Virus record (IMG/VR): IMGVR_UViG_3300029214_000136
Location: 1-7,521 of that record
Strand: one strand, 5' to 3'
DNA length: 7,521 nt
DNA from: a virus
Lineage: Duplodnaviria > Heunggongvirae > Uroviricota > Caudoviricetes
Position numbers and translations under genes: made by a program. The notes under the pieces were generated by a model that was not told the DNA's origin, searched no databases, and saw only the letters and a program-made list of their open reading frames with translations. Position 1 is the stretch's first letter, and each line of letters starts with the position of its first letter. This document shows, piece by piece, positions 2,295 to 7,506 of the stretch.

Positions 2295-2737
2295 TGATGA
2301 AATATCTGTACGTAAACAACCTGGCATATCCTTACGAACTTCAGTCTCTTTATGTTGAAAAAGGTGAATGGCCTGAAGAAAAAGGTGTTGATATAGACGA
2401 AGTAATTTTCAGGGAATATTTCTATGATACACCACCAGAAGGAAAATACAGATGTGTCGGAGAGGATGGACTGCCTGCATGGGCAGATATTCCTCCACCA
2501 ACACGTGAAGAACAAATTGCATCAGCCGAAACTAAAAAGCAGCAATTGATTAACCAGGCCAACGAATACATAAACAGTAAACAATGGCCAGGTAAAGCAT
2601 CAATTGGTCGTCTGAAAGGTGAGGAACTGGCGCAATATAATTTGTGGCTGGATTATCTGGACGCACTGGAACTGGTCGATACTTCCGGTGCGCCAGATAT
2701 TGAATGGTCTACGCCTCCGGCAGTTCAGGCCAGATGA
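2294..2737 (+). CDS. tfaE: Tail fibre assembly protein (Tfa chaperone)
   Basis: The translation [17 protein letters not shown]...YNLWLDYLDALELVDTSGAPDIEWSTPP is the conserved Tfa family pattern, and the gene is coupled to the stf cassette by a TAA/ATG overlap. The true start may be the second ATG at 2297. The symbol is assigned from position next to pinE as in e14. Confidence 0.8.
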   Translation: MMKYLYVNNLAYPYELQSLYVEKGEWPEEKGVDIDEVIFREYFYDTPPEGKYRCVGEDGLPAWADIPPPTREEQIASAETKKQQLINQANEYINSKQWPGKASIGRLKGEELAQYNLWLDYLDALELVDTSGAPDIEWSTPPAVQAR

Positions 2738-2770
2738 CGTCCGGCGCTGTGCTGGTAATCGCGGTTAATC

Positions 2771-2798
2771 NNNNNNNNNNNNNNNNNNNNNNNNNNNN
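2771..2798. other. Run of 28 N: assembly or scaffold gap of unknown true length
   Basis: Directly visible. It truncates the endolysin 3' end and places an invertible tail-fibre cassette next to a lysis cassette with nothing between. Confidence 0.95.
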
Positions 2799-3239
2799 TT
2801 TGAATTTTGCAATCAGGCTGTCAGCCTTATGCTCGAACTGACCATAACCAGCGCCCGGCAGTGAAGCCCAGATATTGCTGCAACGGTCGATAGCCTGACG
2901 AATATCACCGCGATCAATCATCGGTAAAGCGCCACGCTCTTTAATCTGTTGCAGTGCCACAGCGTCCTGGCTTTTCGGAGAGAAGTCTTTCAGGCCAAGC
3001 TGCTTGCGGTAAGCATCCCACCAGCGTGAAAGAAGTTGATAACGGCCTGCAGCTGTTGATTTGAGTTTCGGGTTTAGCGTGACAAGTTTGCGAGGGTGAT
3101 CGGAGTAATCAGTGAAGAGTTCTCCACCGACAATAACGTCATAACCGTGGTTACGTGTCGGTTGTCGCCCGTTATCCGTTCCCTCTGACCATGCCACCAT
3201 ATCCAGGAAAGCTTTACGCTGGGAATTTAGTACCTGCAT
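2799..3239 (-). CDS. R: Phage endolysin, lambda R-like lytic transglycosylase, 3' end lost in the N gap
   Basis: The translation MQVLNSQRKAFLDMVAWSEGTDNGRQPTRNHGYDVIVGGELFTDYSDHPRKLVTLNPKLKS...GQFEHKADSLIAKFK is nearly collinear with lambda R as I remember it. An RBS TAAGGAG precedes the ATG at 3239. The track ORF runs through the Ns to 2709; that extension is an artefact. Confidence 0.9.
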
Positions 3240-3242
3240 AAA

Positions 3243-3569
3243 TTACTCCTTAGAGCCACCAAACTTGTTACCGATTACTCTCATTGCAGCCCCACGAATA
3301 GCATCAACACCGATCAGCCCCACCCCACCACCAATGGCAACAGATAGTGATTTAGGCCATCCGACATACTCAAGAGCGGATGCAAAAGTCAGCGTCAGAG
3401 CGCCACAGAGTAGAATTTCGAGTGTTTTTCGCTTCCAGCCGCCACCACCGCCAAAATAGGCAATACGTAAACCAGCCATAACAATCGACATAATCACTGC
3501 GCCCAGCGGTGTGTCTCCACGCCACCAGCTCTGGACCAACTCCAGCCATGTATTTGGGTTATGAGGCAT
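3243..3569 (-). CDS. Putative holin (class I-like, lambda S-type topology), 108 aa
   Basis: It lies immediately upstream of the endolysin, with its stop 3 nt from the endolysin ATG. The protein is small with hydrophobic stretches (GAVIMSIVMAGLRIAYFGGGGGW, LEILLCGALTLTFASAL, SVAIGGGVGLIGV) and a charged C-terminal tail, resembling lambda S in the region MAGLRIAYFGGG versus MAYLRGRYNGG. Confidence 0.7.
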   Translation of the reverse strand: MPHNPNTWLELVQSWWRGDTPLGAVIMSIVMAGLRIAYFGGGGGWKRKTLEILLCGALTLTFASALEYVGWPKSLSVAIGGGVGLIGVDAIRGAAMRVIGNKFGGSKE

Positions 3570-3707
3570 TTGTAGTTATCTCTCACCTCGCTGATACAGC
3601 AGGTGCAAATTGAGGAAACATCATGTACCGCAAATCAGAAGCGGAAACGTCAAAGAAGCCGAGTCAATGGATAACTGCGGGATAGGCTAGGACCAAGGAA
3701 TCCCCAG

Positions 3708-3743
3708 ACCCAGAAACGACAAAACCCGCTCGATGGCGGGTTT
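3708..3743 (-). terminator. Intrinsic terminator on the minus strand, in the tR' position upstream of the holin
   Basis: An 8-bp GC-rich stem AAACCCGC/GCGGGTTT (3722-3729 and 3736-3743) with loop TCGATG is followed on the minus strand by TTTTGTCGTTTCT. On the plus strand the stem is followed by only TTT, so it is mainly minus-strand directed. Confidence 0.5.
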
Positions 3744-3745
3744 AA

Positions 3746-3860
3746 GCTGTGTGGCGAAGTGAGCACACTTAACAGATTACGATATTTTTTGCGTACGCGT
3801 TAGTGTTTTGATAGAATTTTCAGCCACATAAAAATTCATTCTTATAATTCGGGATATATA
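3746..3860 (+). promoter_or_regulatory. Divergent intergenic control region: candidate promoter for the ORF A/B operon, and possibly the late promoter for the lysis genes on the other strand
   Basis: A consensus TATAAT hexamer lies at 3843-3848, with TTGATA at 3808-3813 but at non-canonical spacing. The palindrome GCGTACGC(GT) lies at 3791-3800 and GGGA lies 7-10 nt before the ATG at 3861. The exact promoter elements are not resolved. Confidence 0.3.
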
Positions 3861-5036
3861 ATGGATATAACTTGTTTAGAATGTGGCAATGTTCTTGACG
3901 ACCCAACTGTAGCTTGCGATAAATGCGGTGCCACGCCTCATGTTGTAGTGCTGGGCAAACAATCGTACTTTCCTATTGGTGCTGTAACAGCAAATCTTGA
4001 AAAAAATGATTCAAGAGCATTTGATTATCGATTAGGTGAAGTTTGGGATCTAAAAAATGAAGTCACATCTGAATTCATAACCAGAATTGAGAAAAAATTT
4101 AGCCGAAAAAACAAATTTCATAACTTCCTAGACTCAGATCACAACCCTTCATCCATTCCTACGATCCTAAAAAAATACATTAATAAAAATAATGAATTCA
4201 TTGATTTATCTAGAGCTATAATAGAGAAGCTTAAACATAATGCTAATAACGAATCGAGAGTTGCCCAACTTCAGGGGGGGAGCGTTGTTTTCATCCACTA
4301 TAAGTCTACCGAACCAGAGGATTTGGGGAAACTTCTAATCGTAATGGTTGATAAACAAAGCGCCTATGACTTTGATTCGGATAAGTTGACCCCAACAAGA
4401 TTAAATCCAATTAATACCGATGCCTTACGGCAGGCTGCGATGTTCGATTTAACTTTATTCGAAGCCAGTTATCCAGAAAACAAGGGTGACTCATATGTAC
4501 ATTTCTTGCAAGGTAAATCTAAAAGCGATTTTTTCAAAGACTCATTAGGTTGCCGACATGATTCGGACAATAAAAGAAGCATTCAGCAATTATTCAGTGC
4601 TATAGATATTTTTGCTAGTAAAAACTCACTCGGTCGTGTACTGCGTGATACTATTGACAATGAAGTTAAATCCTTACTGGAAAAAAAATCAAAAGATAAA
4701 CACGGAAATAAGTCCGTTAAGATAGAGGATATTTCAAAAATAATTGACTCATGCCTGACTGATTCACACAAATGTAAGGGAACGTTTGTCGATTTTGTTA
4801 ATCTTAATGGTTTCCAGATTGACCCTCAATTTGAACCAACTCCTAAAGCAGCTGAAAGCGCGCTTACAATTGAAGTGGCAGATAACGACAATAATTTTAA
4901 GTTGAAAATAATGCGTGGAGCTATTGGAGACGAAAAGTCAAATAAGCCTGTAATTCTCACTGACAACAAATGCGAAATTGTGATAAAATTGAGTCAGGCA
5001 AATTATGATGAACTCAAAAGATATAGAGACAGCTAA
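3861..5036 (+). CDS. Hypothetical protein (391 aa): N-terminal CxxC-x10-CxxC zinc ribbon fused to a domain resembling nucleoid-associated protein NdpA/YejK
   Basis: The ORF is long and uninterrupted. Cysteines lie at residues 5, 8, 19 and 22 (CLECGNVLDDPTVACDKCG). The segment GGSVVFIHY...LLIVMVDK...LNPINTDALRQAAMFDLTLFE...YVHFLQGKSKSDFFKDSLGC aligns by eye with E. coli YejK GGFVLFCHY...LLVAVLSN...LDINHADIVARIDLTEWE...[23 protein letters not shown]. Composition is AT-rich and Lys/Asn-rich. Confidence 0.8.
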   Translation: MDITCLECGNVLDDPTVACDKCGATPHVVVLGKQSYFPIGAVTANLEKNDSRAFDYRLGEVWDLKNEVTSEFITRIEKKFSRKNKFHNFLDSDHNPSSIPTILKKYINKNNEFIDLSRAIIEKLKHNANNESRVAQLQGGSVVFIHYKSTEPEDLGKLLIVMVDKQSAYDFDSDKLTPTRLNPINTDALRQAAMFDLTLFEASYPENKGDSYVHFLQGKSKSDFFKDSLGCRHDSDNKRSIQQLFSAIDIFASKNSLGRVLRDTIDNEVKSLLEKKSKDKHGNKSVKIEDISKIIDSCLTDSHKCKGTFVDFVNLNGFQIDPQFEPTPKAAESALTIEVADNDNNFKLKIMRGAIGDEKSNKPVILTDNKCEIVIKLSQANYDELKRYRDS

Positions 5037-5038
5037 TA

Positions 5039-6253
5039 ATGACAATTGCTGATGACTTATCAAGATTAGCGCAGATTATTAACGGAGCCTCAAGCAGAGT
5101 TGAGGGCTACTACACTGTCATAAGTCTTGAAGAAAGCATTGTTATTGTAAATAGTTCTGAAATAATTAGACTGTTACAATCTATAGGTTATAAAAAGGCA
5201 ACAACCTGCATCGAAAATAATGAAATTTGGCTAGATCGCCAAGCTTCATCTTGGGATGATGCTATAATTTATGAGAATGTTGAGTCTTTTTGGTCTAGAG
5301 TAAACACCCAAAACGCTCTTCCGAAAAATTATATCATCGGAACGCCGTTAATACTCCCTACTTCTAAGAATGAAAGCATCGAAAAAATCCATATTTTCTT
5401 TATGTGGAAAGATATCCTTTCATTAATTTCTGATCATCATAACAGTGACTGCTCTGTCTTATTTTTCACCAATGAAGACAAAAGTTATACAGTCGAACTC
5501 ACGCATTTTTTACAATATAGCGAGATTAATCGCTTATCGAACTCGTCTCTTAAATATGAAATTATAAAGGAGCTTCTCGACACAATAAAAATCAATGATT
5601 TACACAAAAGCGAGCGCAAGCTCGTTATACGCTCAGCCATAAACGAAGTATTTAAAGCAAATGGTACGTTCAATTTCTTTGACTTGCTTAACTCTACTGA
5701 ACTCGTCAGGAAAAAATATGATGAACTATATGAGATTTACACAAAGAGGTTTTCTGTAAATAAAATTCTTAACGAACTCGATGAGAAAAATCTTGAGTTC
5801 ACGAGTAAAATTAACGAATTCATATCATCTAATCAGACAAAAGCATTGACTATTCCCGGTGCATTAATAGCAGCTGGTGGCTTAGTGAAGGCTAATGAAA
5901 CAACCGAAGCAATATTGATTATCGCAGGACTTTGGATGATAAAAAAAGTCAATTACATTTCTATTGAGATATTCAATGAAACATTCGACAACTTACGTTC
6001 TCGAGTGGAGTCCGCTTTCGATAAGTATTTAAAGTTTGAAGAAAATAAAGAAATCAAAGATAATGCAGATAGTATTAAGAGTAGCATTACAGGTTTGATT
6101 GATAAAGCTAAAAAAAGGATGAGAACTGTTAAATATCTCGCATCAGCCATGTTTTATGGAGGCCTTATTTACGTTGGATATAAACAGTTCCCAGTCTTTT
6201 TTGAAAAATCGGCAGTAAATCTATTTTATTTTTTATGCCATACTATAAGCTAA
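5039..6253 (+). CDS. Hypothetical protein (404 aa) with hydrophobic, possibly membrane-associated segments; translationally coupled to ORF A
   Basis: The start ATG is 2 nt after the ORF A stop (TAATAATG). Hydrophobic stretches occur at about residues 268-300 (ALTIPGALIAAGGLV...AILIIAGLWMI) and 366-380 (LASAMFYGGLIYVGY). I recognise no catalytic motif. Confidence 0.8.
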   Translation: MTIADDLSRLAQIINGASSRVEGYYTVISLEESIVIVNSSEIIRLLQSIGYKKATTCIENNEIWLDRQASSWDDAIIYENVESFWSRVNTQNALPKNYIIGTPLILPTSKNESIEKIHIFFMWKDILSLISDHHNSDCSVLFFTNEDKSYTVELTHFLQYSEINRLSNSSLKYEIIKELLDTIKINDLHKSERKLVIRSAINEVFKANGTFNFFDLLNSTELVRKKYDELYEIYTKRFSVNKILNELDEKNLEFTSKINEFISSNQTKALTIPGALIAAGGLVKANETTEAILIIAGLWMIKKVNYISIEIFNETFDNLRSRVESAFDKYLKFEENKEIKDNADSIKSSITGLIDKAKKRMRTVKYLASAMFYGGLIYVGYKQFPVFFEKSAVNLFYFLCHTIS

Positions 6254-6589
6254 CATTGCTAAACAGCCATCAACAAACCCCATTGCAGTTTGCAGTTCCT
6301 TCCTAATTGTGCCATCAGAGCATTTTCTCTTCTTCGCAATAGTGCGTAATGAGATACCGATAACAAAGTGGGCGATGATGAGCTCATATTCCTCTGGTTT
6401 ATACCTTCTCAACCGAGCCACACAACTGTCTATCATGATGCCTTCGTCATCATCACACTGAATCCGTGACTTTTTGCCATGAGGTAAAAGTCCCTTGAAA
6501 CCAGCCGCTATCGGCTGCCAGTCCACTCCGCTATTGTCTGAAGCAGCCCAAGCTCCCCAACGATCCATTACTTCATACATATCACGCAT
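6233..6589 (-). CDS. Late-gene antiterminator of the Q family (QuuD / phage 82 Q-like), 118 aa
   Basis: The translation MRDMYEVMDRWGAWAA...WQPIAAGFKGLLP...RIQCDDDEGIMIDSCVARL...CSDGTIRKELQTAMGFVDGCL matches the pattern I recall for QuuD (LERWGAWAA...IAAGFKGL...CDDD...CSDG...LQKAEG). The ATG at 6589 has a GGAGA RBS; the track ORF begins at a TTG at 6604. Confidence 0.85.
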   Translation of the reverse strand: MRDMYEVMDRWGAWAASDNSGVDWQPIAAGFKGLLPHGKKSRIQCDDDEGIMIDSCVARLRRYKPEEYELIIAHFVIGISLRTIAKKRKCSDGTIRKELQTAMGFVDGCLAMLAYSMA

Positions 6590-6606
6590 CAACTTTCTCC
6601 ACAAAA

Positions 6607-7506
6607 TCAGGCCAGCACACCAATTGCCAGCGCACGATCGATAAAACGAAATATCAACTCCAGCTGGGAGCCATACTTCTCTTCAAATGCCACGGTATCC
6701 GCATGCAGCTCGTCGTGATGCTTTCTGCACAAAGGCAGCACAAAGAATCGGGATTCGAAGAAATGCGGCTGCGTCTCGCGCGGATTTGCGGGACTGGTGA
6801 TGTTCTTGCCGAACATGCAGCCTTTCGCCGTCAGCGACCAGAATTTTTTGATGTTGTTAATCGCGGTACGGCTGTATCGTTCGCGCTGCTCGACGATCCC
6901 CAGCTTCACCATCTGGTGATATGCCTGATTAGCTGTCAGGCGGATACCATACTGCTTCAGCAGTGCACTCAGTGACAGCGTGGGGCGGCTTGAGCCATCA
7001 GGCGCGTCAGCAGGAGCATCAATGGCATAGCGCGGTGCCAGATTCGGTAAGCCAACAGCCTCCTGGAGTTTCTGACAGGCTCCAAGCACTGAAGAGTTAG
7101 ACAGATTTAACTCCCGGCGCATAAAGTCCAGCAGAATCACGCCAGCCTGCATCTTGTCAGCAGCCTGTCCGGATAATTTTTCAGGTGCGCTGGTTACCAT
7201 GTCGAAAGTACGGATCACCTTCAGATGGAATGACGGGCTGATCCACATTGCATAGGCATACACCAGTTCTTTGCAGACATACGTCCCCTGGTTATTTCCG
7301 CCACGAATAACGTTAACTGGCTCTATATTGACCGAGTTGCAAATCTGCAACTCGCTTATTAAACGTTCAGTTTGCTCATTGCGGAGCCAGAATGCAGGCT
7401 TATGCTTATCCAGAGAACCGGCAGCCCTGTGCAGATCGTTCAGGCTGTAACGACCATAAGCATCACGACGAACTTCAATACCATCAATGACCATCAGATT
7501 ATTCAT
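6607..7506 (-). CDS. KilA-N domain protein (phage antirepressor or Roi-like), 299 aa
   Basis: The N-terminus MNNLMVIDGIEVRRDAYGRYSLNDLHRAAG...KPAFWLRNEQTERLI fits the KilA-N pattern. A GAGGAG RBS lies upstream of the ATG at 7506, and the stop at 6607-6609 leaves about 17 nt before the Q start at 6589. Its position just upstream of Q is typical for lambdoid nin/ant region genes. Confidence 0.7.
   Translation of the reverse strand: MNNLMVIDGIEVRRDAYGRYSLNDLHRAAGSLDKHKPAFWLRNEQTERLISELQICNSVNIEPVNVIRGGNNQGTYVCKELVYAYAMWISPSFHLKVIRTFDMVTSAPEKLSGQAADKMQAGVILLDFMRRELNLSNSSVLGACQKLQEAVGLPNLAPRYAIDAPADAPDGSSRPTLSLSALLKQYGIRLTANQAYHQMVKLGIVEQRERYSRTAINNIKKFWSLTAKGCMFGKNITSPANPRETQPHFFESRFFVLPLCRKHHDELHADTVAFEEKYGSQLELIFRFIDRALAIGVLA

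What the first reader, a model, noticed from the sequence alone, without database searches (positions are those of the whole stretch)
5039..6253. ORF B: 404-aa protein with no recognisable motifs and internal hydrophobic segments, a candidate effector
Seen in sequence: it is tightly coupled to ORF A, and its N-terminal ~260 residues have no motif I can recognise. A hydrophobic pair at about residues 268-300 is split by KANETTE, and a further hydrophobic stretch lies at about 366-380 with an aromatic-rich C-terminus. Inference: it may be a membrane-inserting or membrane-perturbing effector partnered with ORF A. The hydrophobic stretches are short, so transmembrane status is uncertain.
Basis: inference. 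Interest (0 to 1): 0.6.

Follow-up and report, generated by a model that had tools for sequence, protein, structure and literature searches.

The report
Membrane partner of DS-1 phage defence

Summary
ORF B (5039-6253, 404 aa) starts 2 nt after ORF A, has no Pfam domain, and carries hydrophobic segments at 269-283, 291-301 and 366-381.

It is not new. ORF A is identical to DS-1A, and ORF B differs at one of the 399 residues that could be compared (S131A) from DS-1B. DS-1 is a system shown to protect E. coli from phages (DeWeirdt et al., Science 2026). NCBIfam models built from it match above their cut-offs. A 2026 preprint describes the same architecture as type II PANGU. In it, a YejK-like nucleoid protein leaves the degraded chromosome and binds the acidic N-domain of a transmembrane effector.

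My analyses add four points:
- The three hydrophobic segments are conserved across a family of about 780 clusters, and are more hydrophobic in most relatives.
- The N-domain (1-219) folds confidently, is acidic, and matches no known fold.
- The most conserved block is the stalk/TM1 junction (KALTIPGALIAxG, invariant P273).
- A YejK-like gene lies immediately upstream in every informative locus.

Membrane damage by ORF B has not been shown by anyone. Identity with the PANGU protein could not be checked, because no sequences were available.

The parts
3808..3860 (+). Low-GC leader of the cassette with sigma-70-like hexamers (TTGATA-16-AAAAAT at 3808-3835). This is a candidate native promoter.
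   Evidence: Consensus scan only, and the number of promoter-like sites is not above the shuffled expectation. GC drops from about 0.50 to about 0.34 here. The published DS-1 clone used its native upstream region.
3861..5036 (+). ORF A, 391 aa: a YejK-like nucleoid-associated protein with an N-terminal zinc ribbon (residues 1-40, two CxxC). It is DS-1A and, by architecture, a Pag2A-type sensor.
   Evidence: Pfam NA37 1.2e-23. NCBIfam NF053868 DS1_1_antiphage scores 451 bits against a cut-off of 330. It is not the housekeeping YejK: 81 bits against a cut-off of 341. It is 391/391 identical to WP_000355468.1, as printed in Table S8 of the paper. PDB YejK 9be2 matches at 1.2e-9. The zinc ribbon is kept in 12 of 14 homologues.
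5039..6253 (+). ORF B, 404 aa: DS-1B, the finding itself.
   Evidence: NCBIfam NF053869 DS1_2_antiphage scores 375 bits against a cut-off of 315. phrog_5023, function unknown. It differs from the tested WP_000150292.1 only at S131A over 399 compared residues. AF2 mean pLDDT is 84.6.
5039..5695 (+). ORF B residues 1-219: an acidic alpha/beta domain, presumed cytoplasmic. It is the presumed docking site for ORF A (the 'DMK' domain of the preprint).
5711..5890 (+). ORF B residues 225-284: the most conserved block of the family. It covers the end of the long stalk helix and TM1 (RFSVNK..E..TSKINE.ISS.Q.KALTIPGALIAxG..K).
   Evidence: In the 42-sequence alignment A1, invariant residues include Y227, S239, N241, K242, E246, K257, Q266, K268, A269, P273, A275 and A278. 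P273 is the only residue invariant in the more distant set. AF2 predicts one continuous helix over 220-281.
5843..5953 (+). ORF B residues 269-305: a hydrophobic helical hairpin. TM1 is 269-283, the loop is KANETTE at 284-290, and TM2 is 291-305.
   Evidence: Sequence and hydropathy. Family-wide mean hydropathy peaks fall at these columns, and most homologues exceed 1.6 on the Kyte-Doolittle 19-residue scale here. AF2 predicts helices 220-281 and 288-331 with a turn at 282-287.
5954..6133 (+). ORF B residues 306-365: two amphipathic helices, net positive, ending in KAKKRMRTVK. They are presumed cytoplasmic and to pack against the stalk helix.
   Evidence: AF2 helices 288-331 and 337-383. Net charge of residues 303-365 is +3. 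Hydrophobic moments are 1.08 and 1.59.
6134..6250 (+). ORF B residues 366-404: the third hydrophobic segment (366-383) and an aromatic amphipathic tail, presumed periplasmic side. The last 21 nt of the gene overlap the 3' end of the convergent Q gene.
   Evidence: Hydropathy. The tail is variable in length, and two homologues carry SH3 domains there. Q occupies 6233-6604 on the minus strand.

Best explanation
ORF B is the predicted membrane-embedded subunit of a two-gene, prophage-carried anti-phage system. The system is published as DS-1 and, by architecture, as type II PANGU. ORF A is its YejK-like DNA-bound sensor.

Shown by others:
- The DS-1 pair, expressed from its own promoter, reduces plating of T1-like, T5-like and T3/T7 phages.
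- In the architecturally matching PANGU-Ecu system both genes are required and neither is toxic alone. Infection is aborted at the population level.
- In that system the nucleoid protein leaves the nucleoid during infection and binds the effector's acidic N-domain at 19 nM.

Inferred here:
- ORF B is an N-in inner-membrane protein. It has a cytoplasmic acidic alpha/beta domain (1-219) and a long stalk helix (220-268).
- The stalk runs straight into a conserved TM1-loop-TM2 hairpin (269-305). Two cytoplasmic helices and a third TM segment (366-383) follow.
- When phage nucleases destroy the chromosome, freed ORF A docks on the acidic domain. The stalk transmits this to the conserved KALTIPGALIAxG hairpin.
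- The hairpin then opens or assembles into a leak in the inner membrane. Membrane potential collapses and the infection aborts.
For: Identity with DS-1:
- NCBIfam equivalog hits are above cut-off for both genes.
- ORF A is 391/391 identical, and ORF B differs at 1 of 399 compared residues from the cloned proteins.
- RefSeq names the protein 'anti-phage protein'.

Defence data for DS-1, as -log10 EOP: Bas1 7.6, Bas26 2.7, Bas3 1.7, T3 1.7, T5 1.0, T7 0.9.

Architecture:
- AF2 full model pLDDT 84.6, with helices 220-281, 288-331 and 337-383.
- N-domain model pLDDT 93.4.
- The N-domain is acidic across the family.
- Three hydrophobic segments are conserved, and most homologues are above the TM threshold.
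- The peak of conservation is at the stalk/TM1 junction.
- Charge distribution is compatible with an N-in topology: residues 303-365 carry net +3 and end in KAKKRMRTVK just before TM3, and the TM1-TM2 loop carries -1.
- Some homologues carry C-terminal SH3 extensions.

Obligate pairing with NA37 holds in every informative locus, including relatives below 20% identity. The two proteins are co-inherited (r=0.93).

Defence contexts of homologues include Gabija, AbiE, BstA and Thoeris neighbours. The Q-holin interval also carries other cargo in sister prophages.

ORF A is interrupted by IS1 or ISKpn26 in some genomes while ORF B stays intact. This fits an effector that is harmless without its activator.

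From my own knowledge, T1-like, T5-like and T3/T7 phages degrade host DNA, which fits the trigger model.
Against: - No experiment shows that ORF B is in the membrane or damages it. The preprint states that how Pag2A activates Pag2B remains to be determined.
- In this particular protein the segments are short and score just below the classical TM threshold (1.56). TM1 is not favoured on the Wimley-White scale.
- The sequence of Pag2B-Ecu was not available, so equating DS-1 with type II PANGU rests on architecture alone.
- The reported spectra differ. PANGU-Ecu blocks T4 but not T1 or T5. DS-1 blocks T1-like Bas1 strongly, and T4 is absent from its listed rows, which appear to hold only phages with an effect.
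- DS-1 had no single-gene deletions or mutants in the Science paper.
Confidence: 0.6

Rival explanations
1. The roles are reversed. ORF B is a membrane-anchored sensor or tether, and ORF A is the executor. ORF B would hold or recruit the nucleoid protein at the membrane, where ORF A coats or compacts incoming or replicating phage DNA. No membrane damage would be involved.
For: [quoted passage not shown] ORF A is a DNA-binding NA37 protein with an extra zinc ribbon conserved in 12 of 14 pairs. The N-domain of ORF B has conserved charged residues of the kind expected at an interface.
Against: In type I PANGU the NAP is demonstrably the activator of an enzymatic toxin. Pag2A leaves the nucleoid for a diffuse cytoplasmic pattern on infection. 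The Abi-like growth arrest at high MOI fits a toxic effector. The strongest conservation in ORF B lies in TM1 and the stalk, not in the docking domain.
Confidence: 0.15
2. ORF B is not a membrane protein. The hydrophobic helices would be buried in a soluble oligomeric helical bundle, and the conserved N-domain (D132-H133, D187, E192-R193) would be an enzyme or binding module that acts in the cytoplasm.
Confidence: 0.1
3. ORF B is a superinfection-exclusion protein that blocks phage DNA entry at the inner membrane, as prophage Sie proteins do. ORF A would be an accessory.
For: It is prophage-encoded and predicted to sit in the membrane. The block of Bas1 is complete, with no plaques and EOP below 1e-7.
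Against: The obligate partner is a cytoplasmic DNA-binding protein. The spectrum spans unrelated phages; to my knowledge these use different entry routes. Many homologues lie in non-prophage defence islands. The PANGU-Ecu phenotype is abortive, with growth arrest at high MOI.
Confidence: 0.07
4. ORF B is an accessory of the prophage's own lysis or late-gene control, for example an antiholin or membrane regulator, given its position between Q and the holin.
For: It lies between antiterminator Q (6233-6604) and the holin (3243-3569), and is a predicted membrane protein.
Against: It is transcribed opposite to the late genes. It has foreign base composition, 34% GC against about 50%. Sister prophages carry unrelated cargo in the same interval. 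Homologues occur outside prophages. It confers defence when cloned alone on a plasmid.
Confidence: 0.02

Closest known systems
DS-1 (DS-1A/DS-1B; working id D390) of DeWeirdt, Mahoney and Laub, DefensePredictor, Science 2026 (PMC13092281); NCBIfam NF053868 and NF053869
   Same: It is the same two genes. ORF A is identical to WP_000355468.1. ORF B differs at one residue (S131 against A131 in WP_000150292.1) over the 399 residues that could be compared. Both pass the equivalog cut-offs. The genomic setting, an E. coli prophage, is also the same.
   Different: Only the single substitution. The paper gives no mechanism, no mutants and no domain for the second gene.
Type II PANGU (Pag2A/Pag2B; PANGU-Ecu) of Li et al., bioRxiv 10.64898/2026.04.06.716658
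   Same: A bicistronic operon from E. coli encoding a YejK-like NAP plus an effector. The effector has an acidic N-terminal domain and a C-terminal TM region. Relatives are linked to defence islands.
   Different: Sequence identity could not be checked, because no sequences or accessions are held. The reported spectrum differs: PANGU-Ecu acts on T4 but not T1 or T5, whereas DS-1 acts on T1-like, T5-like and T3/T7 phages. Expression also differed, IPTG-induced against native promoter.
Type I PANGU (Pag1A plus the GRel toxSAS Pag1B)
   Same: The sensing logic is the same. A YejK-like NAP is released from damaged DNA and binds an acidic 'DNA-mimicking' domain on the effector.
   Different: The effector is a soluble alarmone synthetase, not a membrane protein. 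A profile of the ORF B N-domain retrieved only ORF B-type proteins and none with a RelA/SpoT domain, so homology of the two docking domains is unsupported.
Phage lambda RexA/RexB exclusion system (own knowledge)
   Same: It works alike in outline. It is a prophage-encoded pair: a cytoplasmic DNA-associated sensor and an inner-membrane protein believed to depolarise the cell and abort infection.
   Different: There is no detectable homology, and no PADLOC model matched either ORF at E<=1. As I recall, RexB is a four-TM protein without a large cytoplasmic domain. The sensor here is a YejK-family protein.
CorA/Mrs2 magnesium channels
   Different: RMSD is 7.7-14.7 A over about 140-150 residues, so only the long helices superpose. 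There is no CorA Pfam hit and no GMN motif in the sequence. ORF B has an extra third TM segment. This is an analogy only.

Membership tests
DS-1 anti-phage system (NCBIfam NF053868 / NF053869, equivalog models) | The second protein scores above the curated equivalog cut-off of NF053869. | tested here: met
   375.3 bits against a cut-off of 315, E=2.7e-112, covering residues 46-378.
DS-1 anti-phage system (NCBIfam NF053868 / NF053869, equivalog models) | The first protein scores above the cut-off of NF053868 and lies immediately upstream. | tested here: met
   451.4 bits against a cut-off of 330. The gap between the genes is 2 nt.
DS-1 anti-phage system (NCBIfam NF053868 / NF053869, equivalog models) | Sequence identity to the proteins that were cloned and tested. 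| tested here: met
   ORF A is 391/391 identical. ORF B is 398/399 identical over the stretch printed in Table S8, differing at S131A.
DS-1 anti-phage system (NCBIfam NF053868 / NF053869, equivalog models) | Confers phage resistance when expressed in E. coli. | not testable with these tools
   Published for the near-identical pair: Bas1 EOP about 1e-7.6, Bas26 about 1e-2.7, and others. The S131 variant itself has not been tested.
Type II PANGU (Pag2A/Pag2B) | A bicistronic operon whose first gene is a YejK-like (NA37) nucleoid-associated protein. | tested here: met
   Pfam NA37 1.2e-23. The pairing is conserved in all informative homologous loci.
Type II PANGU (Pag2A/Pag2B) | The effector has an acidic N-terminal 'DNA-mimicking' domain. 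| tested here: met
   Residues 1-219 have net charge -8 and pI 5.16. The family median is -8 to -9.5. The domain folds confidently. DNA mimicry itself was not tested.
Type II PANGU (Pag2A/Pag2B) | The effector has a C-terminal transmembrane region. | tested here: met
   Three conserved hydrophobic segments, above the TM threshold in most homologues and at 1.56 in this protein. This is prediction only.
Type II PANGU (Pag2A/Pag2B) | Sequence homology to Pag2B-Ecu, or a match to the authors' Cluster 2 HMM. | not testable with these tools
   No sequences, accessions or supplementary files are held for the preprint.
Type II PANGU (Pag2A/Pag2B) | Both genes are required, neither is toxic alone, and the NAP binds the effector's N-domain. 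| not testable with these tools
   Reported for PANGU-Ecu. An indirect hint here is that IS elements interrupt ORF A while ORF B stays intact in some genomes.
Housekeeping nucleoid protein YejK (for ORF A) | Scores above the NCBIfam YejK equivalog cut-off. | tested here: not met
   81.4 bits against a cut-off of 341. ORF A is a diverged YejK-family paralogue with an added zinc ribbon.
CorA/Mrs2 channel family (for ORF B) | A CorA Pfam domain, a GMN motif after TM1, and close structural superposition. | tested here: not met
Any system in PADLOC-DB v2.0.0 (2023) | A match to a PADLOC protein model. | tested here: not met
   No families matched either ORF at E<=1. The system was described after that release.

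The most novel reading that the evidence does not exclude
ORF B would found a previously unclassified type of inner-membrane effector: an oligomeric channel gated by a nucleoid protein.

A novel-fold acidic receptor domain would capture the YejK-like sensor once the chromosome is destroyed. A CorA-like stalk helix would then pull open a conserved KALTIPGALIAxG hairpin that lines or nucleates the pore.

This would be the first described route from loss of chromosome integrity directly to membrane depolarisation.
Probability: 0.35. Interest if true: 0.55.

Novelty: already known. Interest (0 to 1): 0.3.

Why it matters
The system belongs to a newly recognised class of bacterial immunity. In this class an abundant chromosome-binding protein acts as a sentinel for phage-inflicted DNA destruction.

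The membrane-effector branch, which includes ORF B, is the part whose mechanism is still open. Knowing how a freed nucleoid protein switches on a membrane protein would link genome-integrity sensing to cell suicide.

The conserved stalk/TM1 motif, the fold-less acidic domain and the predicted topology described here give concrete residues and constructs to test.

For genome annotation the practical point is simple. This ORF should be labelled DS-1B (anti-phage protein), not hypothetical.

Tried and rejected
- Pfam, PADLOC and PHROGs gave no informative hit for ORF B. Pfam's best was SWIB at E=0.09, PADLOC gave nothing, and phrog_5023 has no known function.
- tblastn against 50,697 deposited phage genomes found no match.
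- A profile search of PDB sequences gave 0 hits at E<=1.
- Foldseek against BFVD found nothing at E<=1e-3.
- The AlphaFold-database library (afdb50) was not available.
- A profile of the N-domain alone, searched against 5.8 billion proteins, retrieved only the same family. There were no fusions to RelA/SpoT or other effectors. This tool depends on shared 5-residue words, so the negative result is weak.
- A search for an 'empty site' with the holin and Q flanks adjacent found none among 5,426 E. coli genomes. Sister prophages carry other cargo in that interval instead.
- I considered a lysis-accessory role and a superinfection-exclusion role; the arguments against them are under the rival explanations.
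Full report
**1. Observation**

The window is a decayed e14-like/lambdoid prophage of E. coli next to the icd fragment. It carries McrA, PinE, tail-fibre pieces, a lysozyme, a holin, antiterminator Q and a KilA-N protein.

ORF B runs from 5039 to 6253 on the + strand and encodes 404 aa. ORF A (3861-5036) ends with TAA, and the ORF B ATG follows after two bases. Both genes lie in a 2.4-kb block of about 34% GC, inside a backbone of about 50% GC.

- ALTIPGALIAAGGLV (269-283), KANETTE (284-290), AILIIAGLWMI (291-301).
- YLASAMFYGGLIYVGY (366-381), followed by an aromatic tail.

No Pfam or PADLOC model matches.

**2. What it is**

NCBIfam release 20 has equivalog models named DS1_1_antiphage and DS1_2_antiphage, and both ORFs match them above the curated cut-offs. 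ORF A scores 451 bits against 330. ORF B scores 375 bits against 315. Recent RefSeq annotation calls the ORF B protein 'anti-phage protein'.

The name traces to DeWeirdt, Mahoney and Laub, 'DefensePredictor' (Science 2026, PMC13092281). Their Tables S6 and S8 list DS-1 (working id D390) as WP_000355468.1 plus WP_000150292.1. ORF A is identical to the first over all 391 residues. ORF B differs from the second only at residue 131 (Ser here, Ala there) over the 399 residues printed. The window variant is WP_000150293.1.

DS-1 was cloned with its native promoter on a low-copy plasmid in MG1655. It reduced efficiency of plating by the following factors:

| Phage | -log10 EOP | Note |
|---|---|---|
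| Bas1 | 7.6 | |
| Bas26 | 2.7 | |
| Bas3 | 1.7 | |
| T3 | 1.7 | |
| T5 | 1.0 | |
| T7 | 0.9 | |
| SECphi27 | about 0 | smaller plaques only |

That paper gives no mechanism, no mutants and no domain call for the second gene.

A second source is Li et al., bioRxiv 10.64898/2026.04.06.716658 (April 2026). It defines 'PANGU' systems as a YejK-like nucleoid-associated protein (NAP) plus an effector. Type II PANGU pairs the NAP (Pag2A) with 'a transmembrane protein effector Pag2B'. AlphaFold shows Pag2B to have an acidic N-terminal 'DNA-mimicking' domain and a C-terminal TM region.

For an E. coli example (PANGU-Ecu) the preprint reports the following:
- Both genes are needed, and neither is toxic alone.
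- Protection looks abortive.
- Pag2A-GFP leaves the nucleoid on T4 infection.
- The isolated N-domain binds Pag2A with a KD of 19 nM.

The authors state that how Pag2A activates Pag2B 'remains to be determined'. No membrane assay is reported.

The architecture matches ORF A and ORF B point for point. No sequences are held for the preprint, however, so identity is not verified. The reported spectra also differ. PANGU-Ecu acts on T4 but not on T1 or T5. DS-1 acts on T1-like, T5-like and T3/T7 phages.

**3. My own evidence on the protein**

*Family.* A word-indexed search found 69 clusters from 22% to 100% identity, mostly Enterobacterales with a few marine Gammaproteobacteria. A profile search of a 50%-clustered library found 778 representatives at E<=1e-3, nearly all 380-450 aa.

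*Hydrophobic segments.* Family-wide, mean hydropathy peaks at the same three places: about 270-285, 290-305 and 368-382. The E. coli protein peaks at 1.56 on the Kyte-Doolittle 19-residue scale. Most relatives reach 1.8-3.4 at those positions. The segments are therefore a conserved feature, and the E. coli protein is at the weak end. A Wimley-White scan, with scale values recalled from memory, favours segments 2 and 3.

*Structure.* AlphaFold2 with a 42-sequence alignment gives mean pLDDT 84.6. It predicts an alpha/beta domain (1-210) followed by helices 220-281, 288-331, 337-383 and 385-403. Each hydrophobic segment is thus the membrane-distal or membrane-proximal end of a long helix, and TM1 is continuous with a 50-residue stalk.

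*Conservation.* The most conserved stretch is 225-284, the stalk end plus TM1, with the motif KALTIPGALIAxG. P273 is the only residue invariant in the distant set. In the N-domain the conserved residues are W72, P95, D132-H133, D187, E192-R193 and R198.

*Topology.* Three observations are compatible with an N-in, C-out, three-TM topology:
- Residues 303-365 carry net +3 and end in KAKKRMRTVK.
- The TM1-TM2 loop carries net -1.
- Two homologues carry SH3 domains after TM3.

**4. Partnership and context**

An ORF A homologue lies -44 to +18 nt upstream of the ORF B homologue in every locus that has upstream DNA. This covers E. coli, Pseudescherichia, Proteus, Morganella, Phytobacter, Pantoea, Serratia, Pseudomonas, Pseudoteredinibacter, Colwellia, Thalassotalea, Pseudoalteromonas, Vibrio and metagenomic contigs. 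It includes relatives below 20% identity.

Pairwise identities of the two proteins correlate at r=0.93 (Mantel 0/5000). This shows co-inheritance, not necessarily co-evolution beyond shared descent. The NAP keeps its N-terminal zinc ribbon in 12 of 14 pairs.

Neighbours of homologues include Gabija-like genes, BrxR, AbiEii, BstA, Thoeris genes and integrases.

In E. coli the cassette occurs at >=99% identity in 106 of 5,426 complete genomes. It sits between Q and the holin, transcribed against the late genes. Sister prophages carry a TIGR04255 three-gene cassette or a KAP NTPase in the same interval and orientation.

In strain ARS-C301 the cassette survives intact in a heavily deleted prophage remnant.

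**5. Mechanism**

The best-supported reading combines published results with my inference. ORF A coats the chromosome. Phage nucleases destroy the DNA, and freed ORF A binds the acidic N-domain of ORF B. The signal passes down the stalk helix to the conserved TM hairpin. The inner membrane then leaks or depolarises, aborting infection.

- Shown by others for the type II architecture: relocalisation, binding, the requirement for both genes, and the abortive phenotype.
- Shown by others for these genes: defence.
- Inferred by me: membrane insertion, topology, the role of the stalk/TM1 motif, and depolarisation.

From my own knowledge, T1-like, T5-like and T3/T7 phages degrade host DNA, which fits the trigger.

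I put about 0.85 on ORF B being the predicted membrane subunit of this defence system. I put about 0.5 on membrane permeabilisation being the killing step, and give 0.6 for the combined statement.

The rivals are a reversed-role model (ORF B as tether or sensor), a soluble-bundle model, superinfection exclusion and a lysis accessory. They are set out with their tests in the rival explanations.

**6. Comparison and novelty**

The finding is DS-1B by every testable criterion, and it fits type II PANGU in all features I could test. It works like lambda RexAB in outline but shows no homology to it. It shares only a general layout with CorA. ORF A is not the housekeeping YejK (81 bits against a cut-off of 341).

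The feature is therefore already known as a validated defence gene. What remains open is the effector mechanism and the fold of the N-domain.

**7. Verdict**

Novelty is 'already known' and interest is about 0.3. The residual novel possibility is a nucleoid-protein-gated membrane channel with a new receptor fold. I give it about 0.35 probability and moderate interest if true.

Noticed in passing
window 2771-2798: A run of 28 N interrupts the lysozyme ORF (2709-3239, minus strand). The ORF then appears to read on into sequence overlapping the end of the tail-fibre assembly gene. This may be a masked stretch or an assembly gap.
   Followed up: partly
window 6607-7506 (minus strand): A single 299-aa ORF carries a KilA-N domain (residues 7-105) and the last 43 positions of DUF968 (residues 254-296). 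In APEC O2-211 these are two separate genes, and the window is about 0.9 kb shorter there. It therefore looks like a deletion fusion.
   Followed up: partly
window 3570-3860 and 6233-6253; loci L010 and L011: The interval between antiterminator Q and the holin is a cargo hotspot. Sister prophages with the same backbone carry a TIGR04255 three-gene cassette or a KAP-family NTPase there, in the same orientation. No empty site was found in 5,426 genomes.
   Followed up: partly
L001 6262-8211 (NZ_OZ547033.1) and hit H13 (NZ_CP182203.1): IS1 and an IS5-like ISKpn26 element fall within the cassette in some E. coli genomes. In L001, IS1 splits ORF A while ORF B stays intact. This fits an effector that is harmless without its partner.
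   Followed up: no
window 6233-6253: The 3' end of ORF B overlaps the 3' end of the convergent Q gene by 21 nt. The same overlap is annotated in RefSeq genomes.
   Followed up: no
window 3722-3743 (minus strand): A terminator-like hairpin (AAACCCGCCATCGAGCGGGTTT followed by a T-rich tail) lies upstream of the holin on the late-gene strand, in backbone-GC sequence. It may be a tR'-like late terminator. If so, the late promoter region lies on the holin side of the inserted cassette.
   Followed up: no
L012 (NZ_CP132983.1, strain ARS-C301): The cassette is intact inside a heavily decayed e14-like remnant. That remnant holds capsid and lysis-gene fragments and lacks most morphogenesis genes. This suggests retention by selection after the prophage died.
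   Followed up: no
window 3861-3980 (ORF A residues 1-40): The nucleoid protein carries an N-terminal zinc ribbon with two CxxC motifs, absent from the YejK Pfam model. It is conserved in 12 of 14 homologous pairs, and its role is unknown.
   Followed up: partly
P0059 and one further member of alignment A2 (probably P0087): Two ORF B homologues have long C-terminal extensions with bacterial SH3 domains after the third hydrophobic segment. This hints that the C-terminus faces the cell wall.
   Followed up: no
L014 (JAATEZ010000277.1): A 2.6-kb contig binned as a Lactobacillales MAG carries an ORF A/ORF B pair; its ORF B is 37% identical to the window protein. The family is otherwise gammaproteobacterial, so this may be a binning error.
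   Followed up: no
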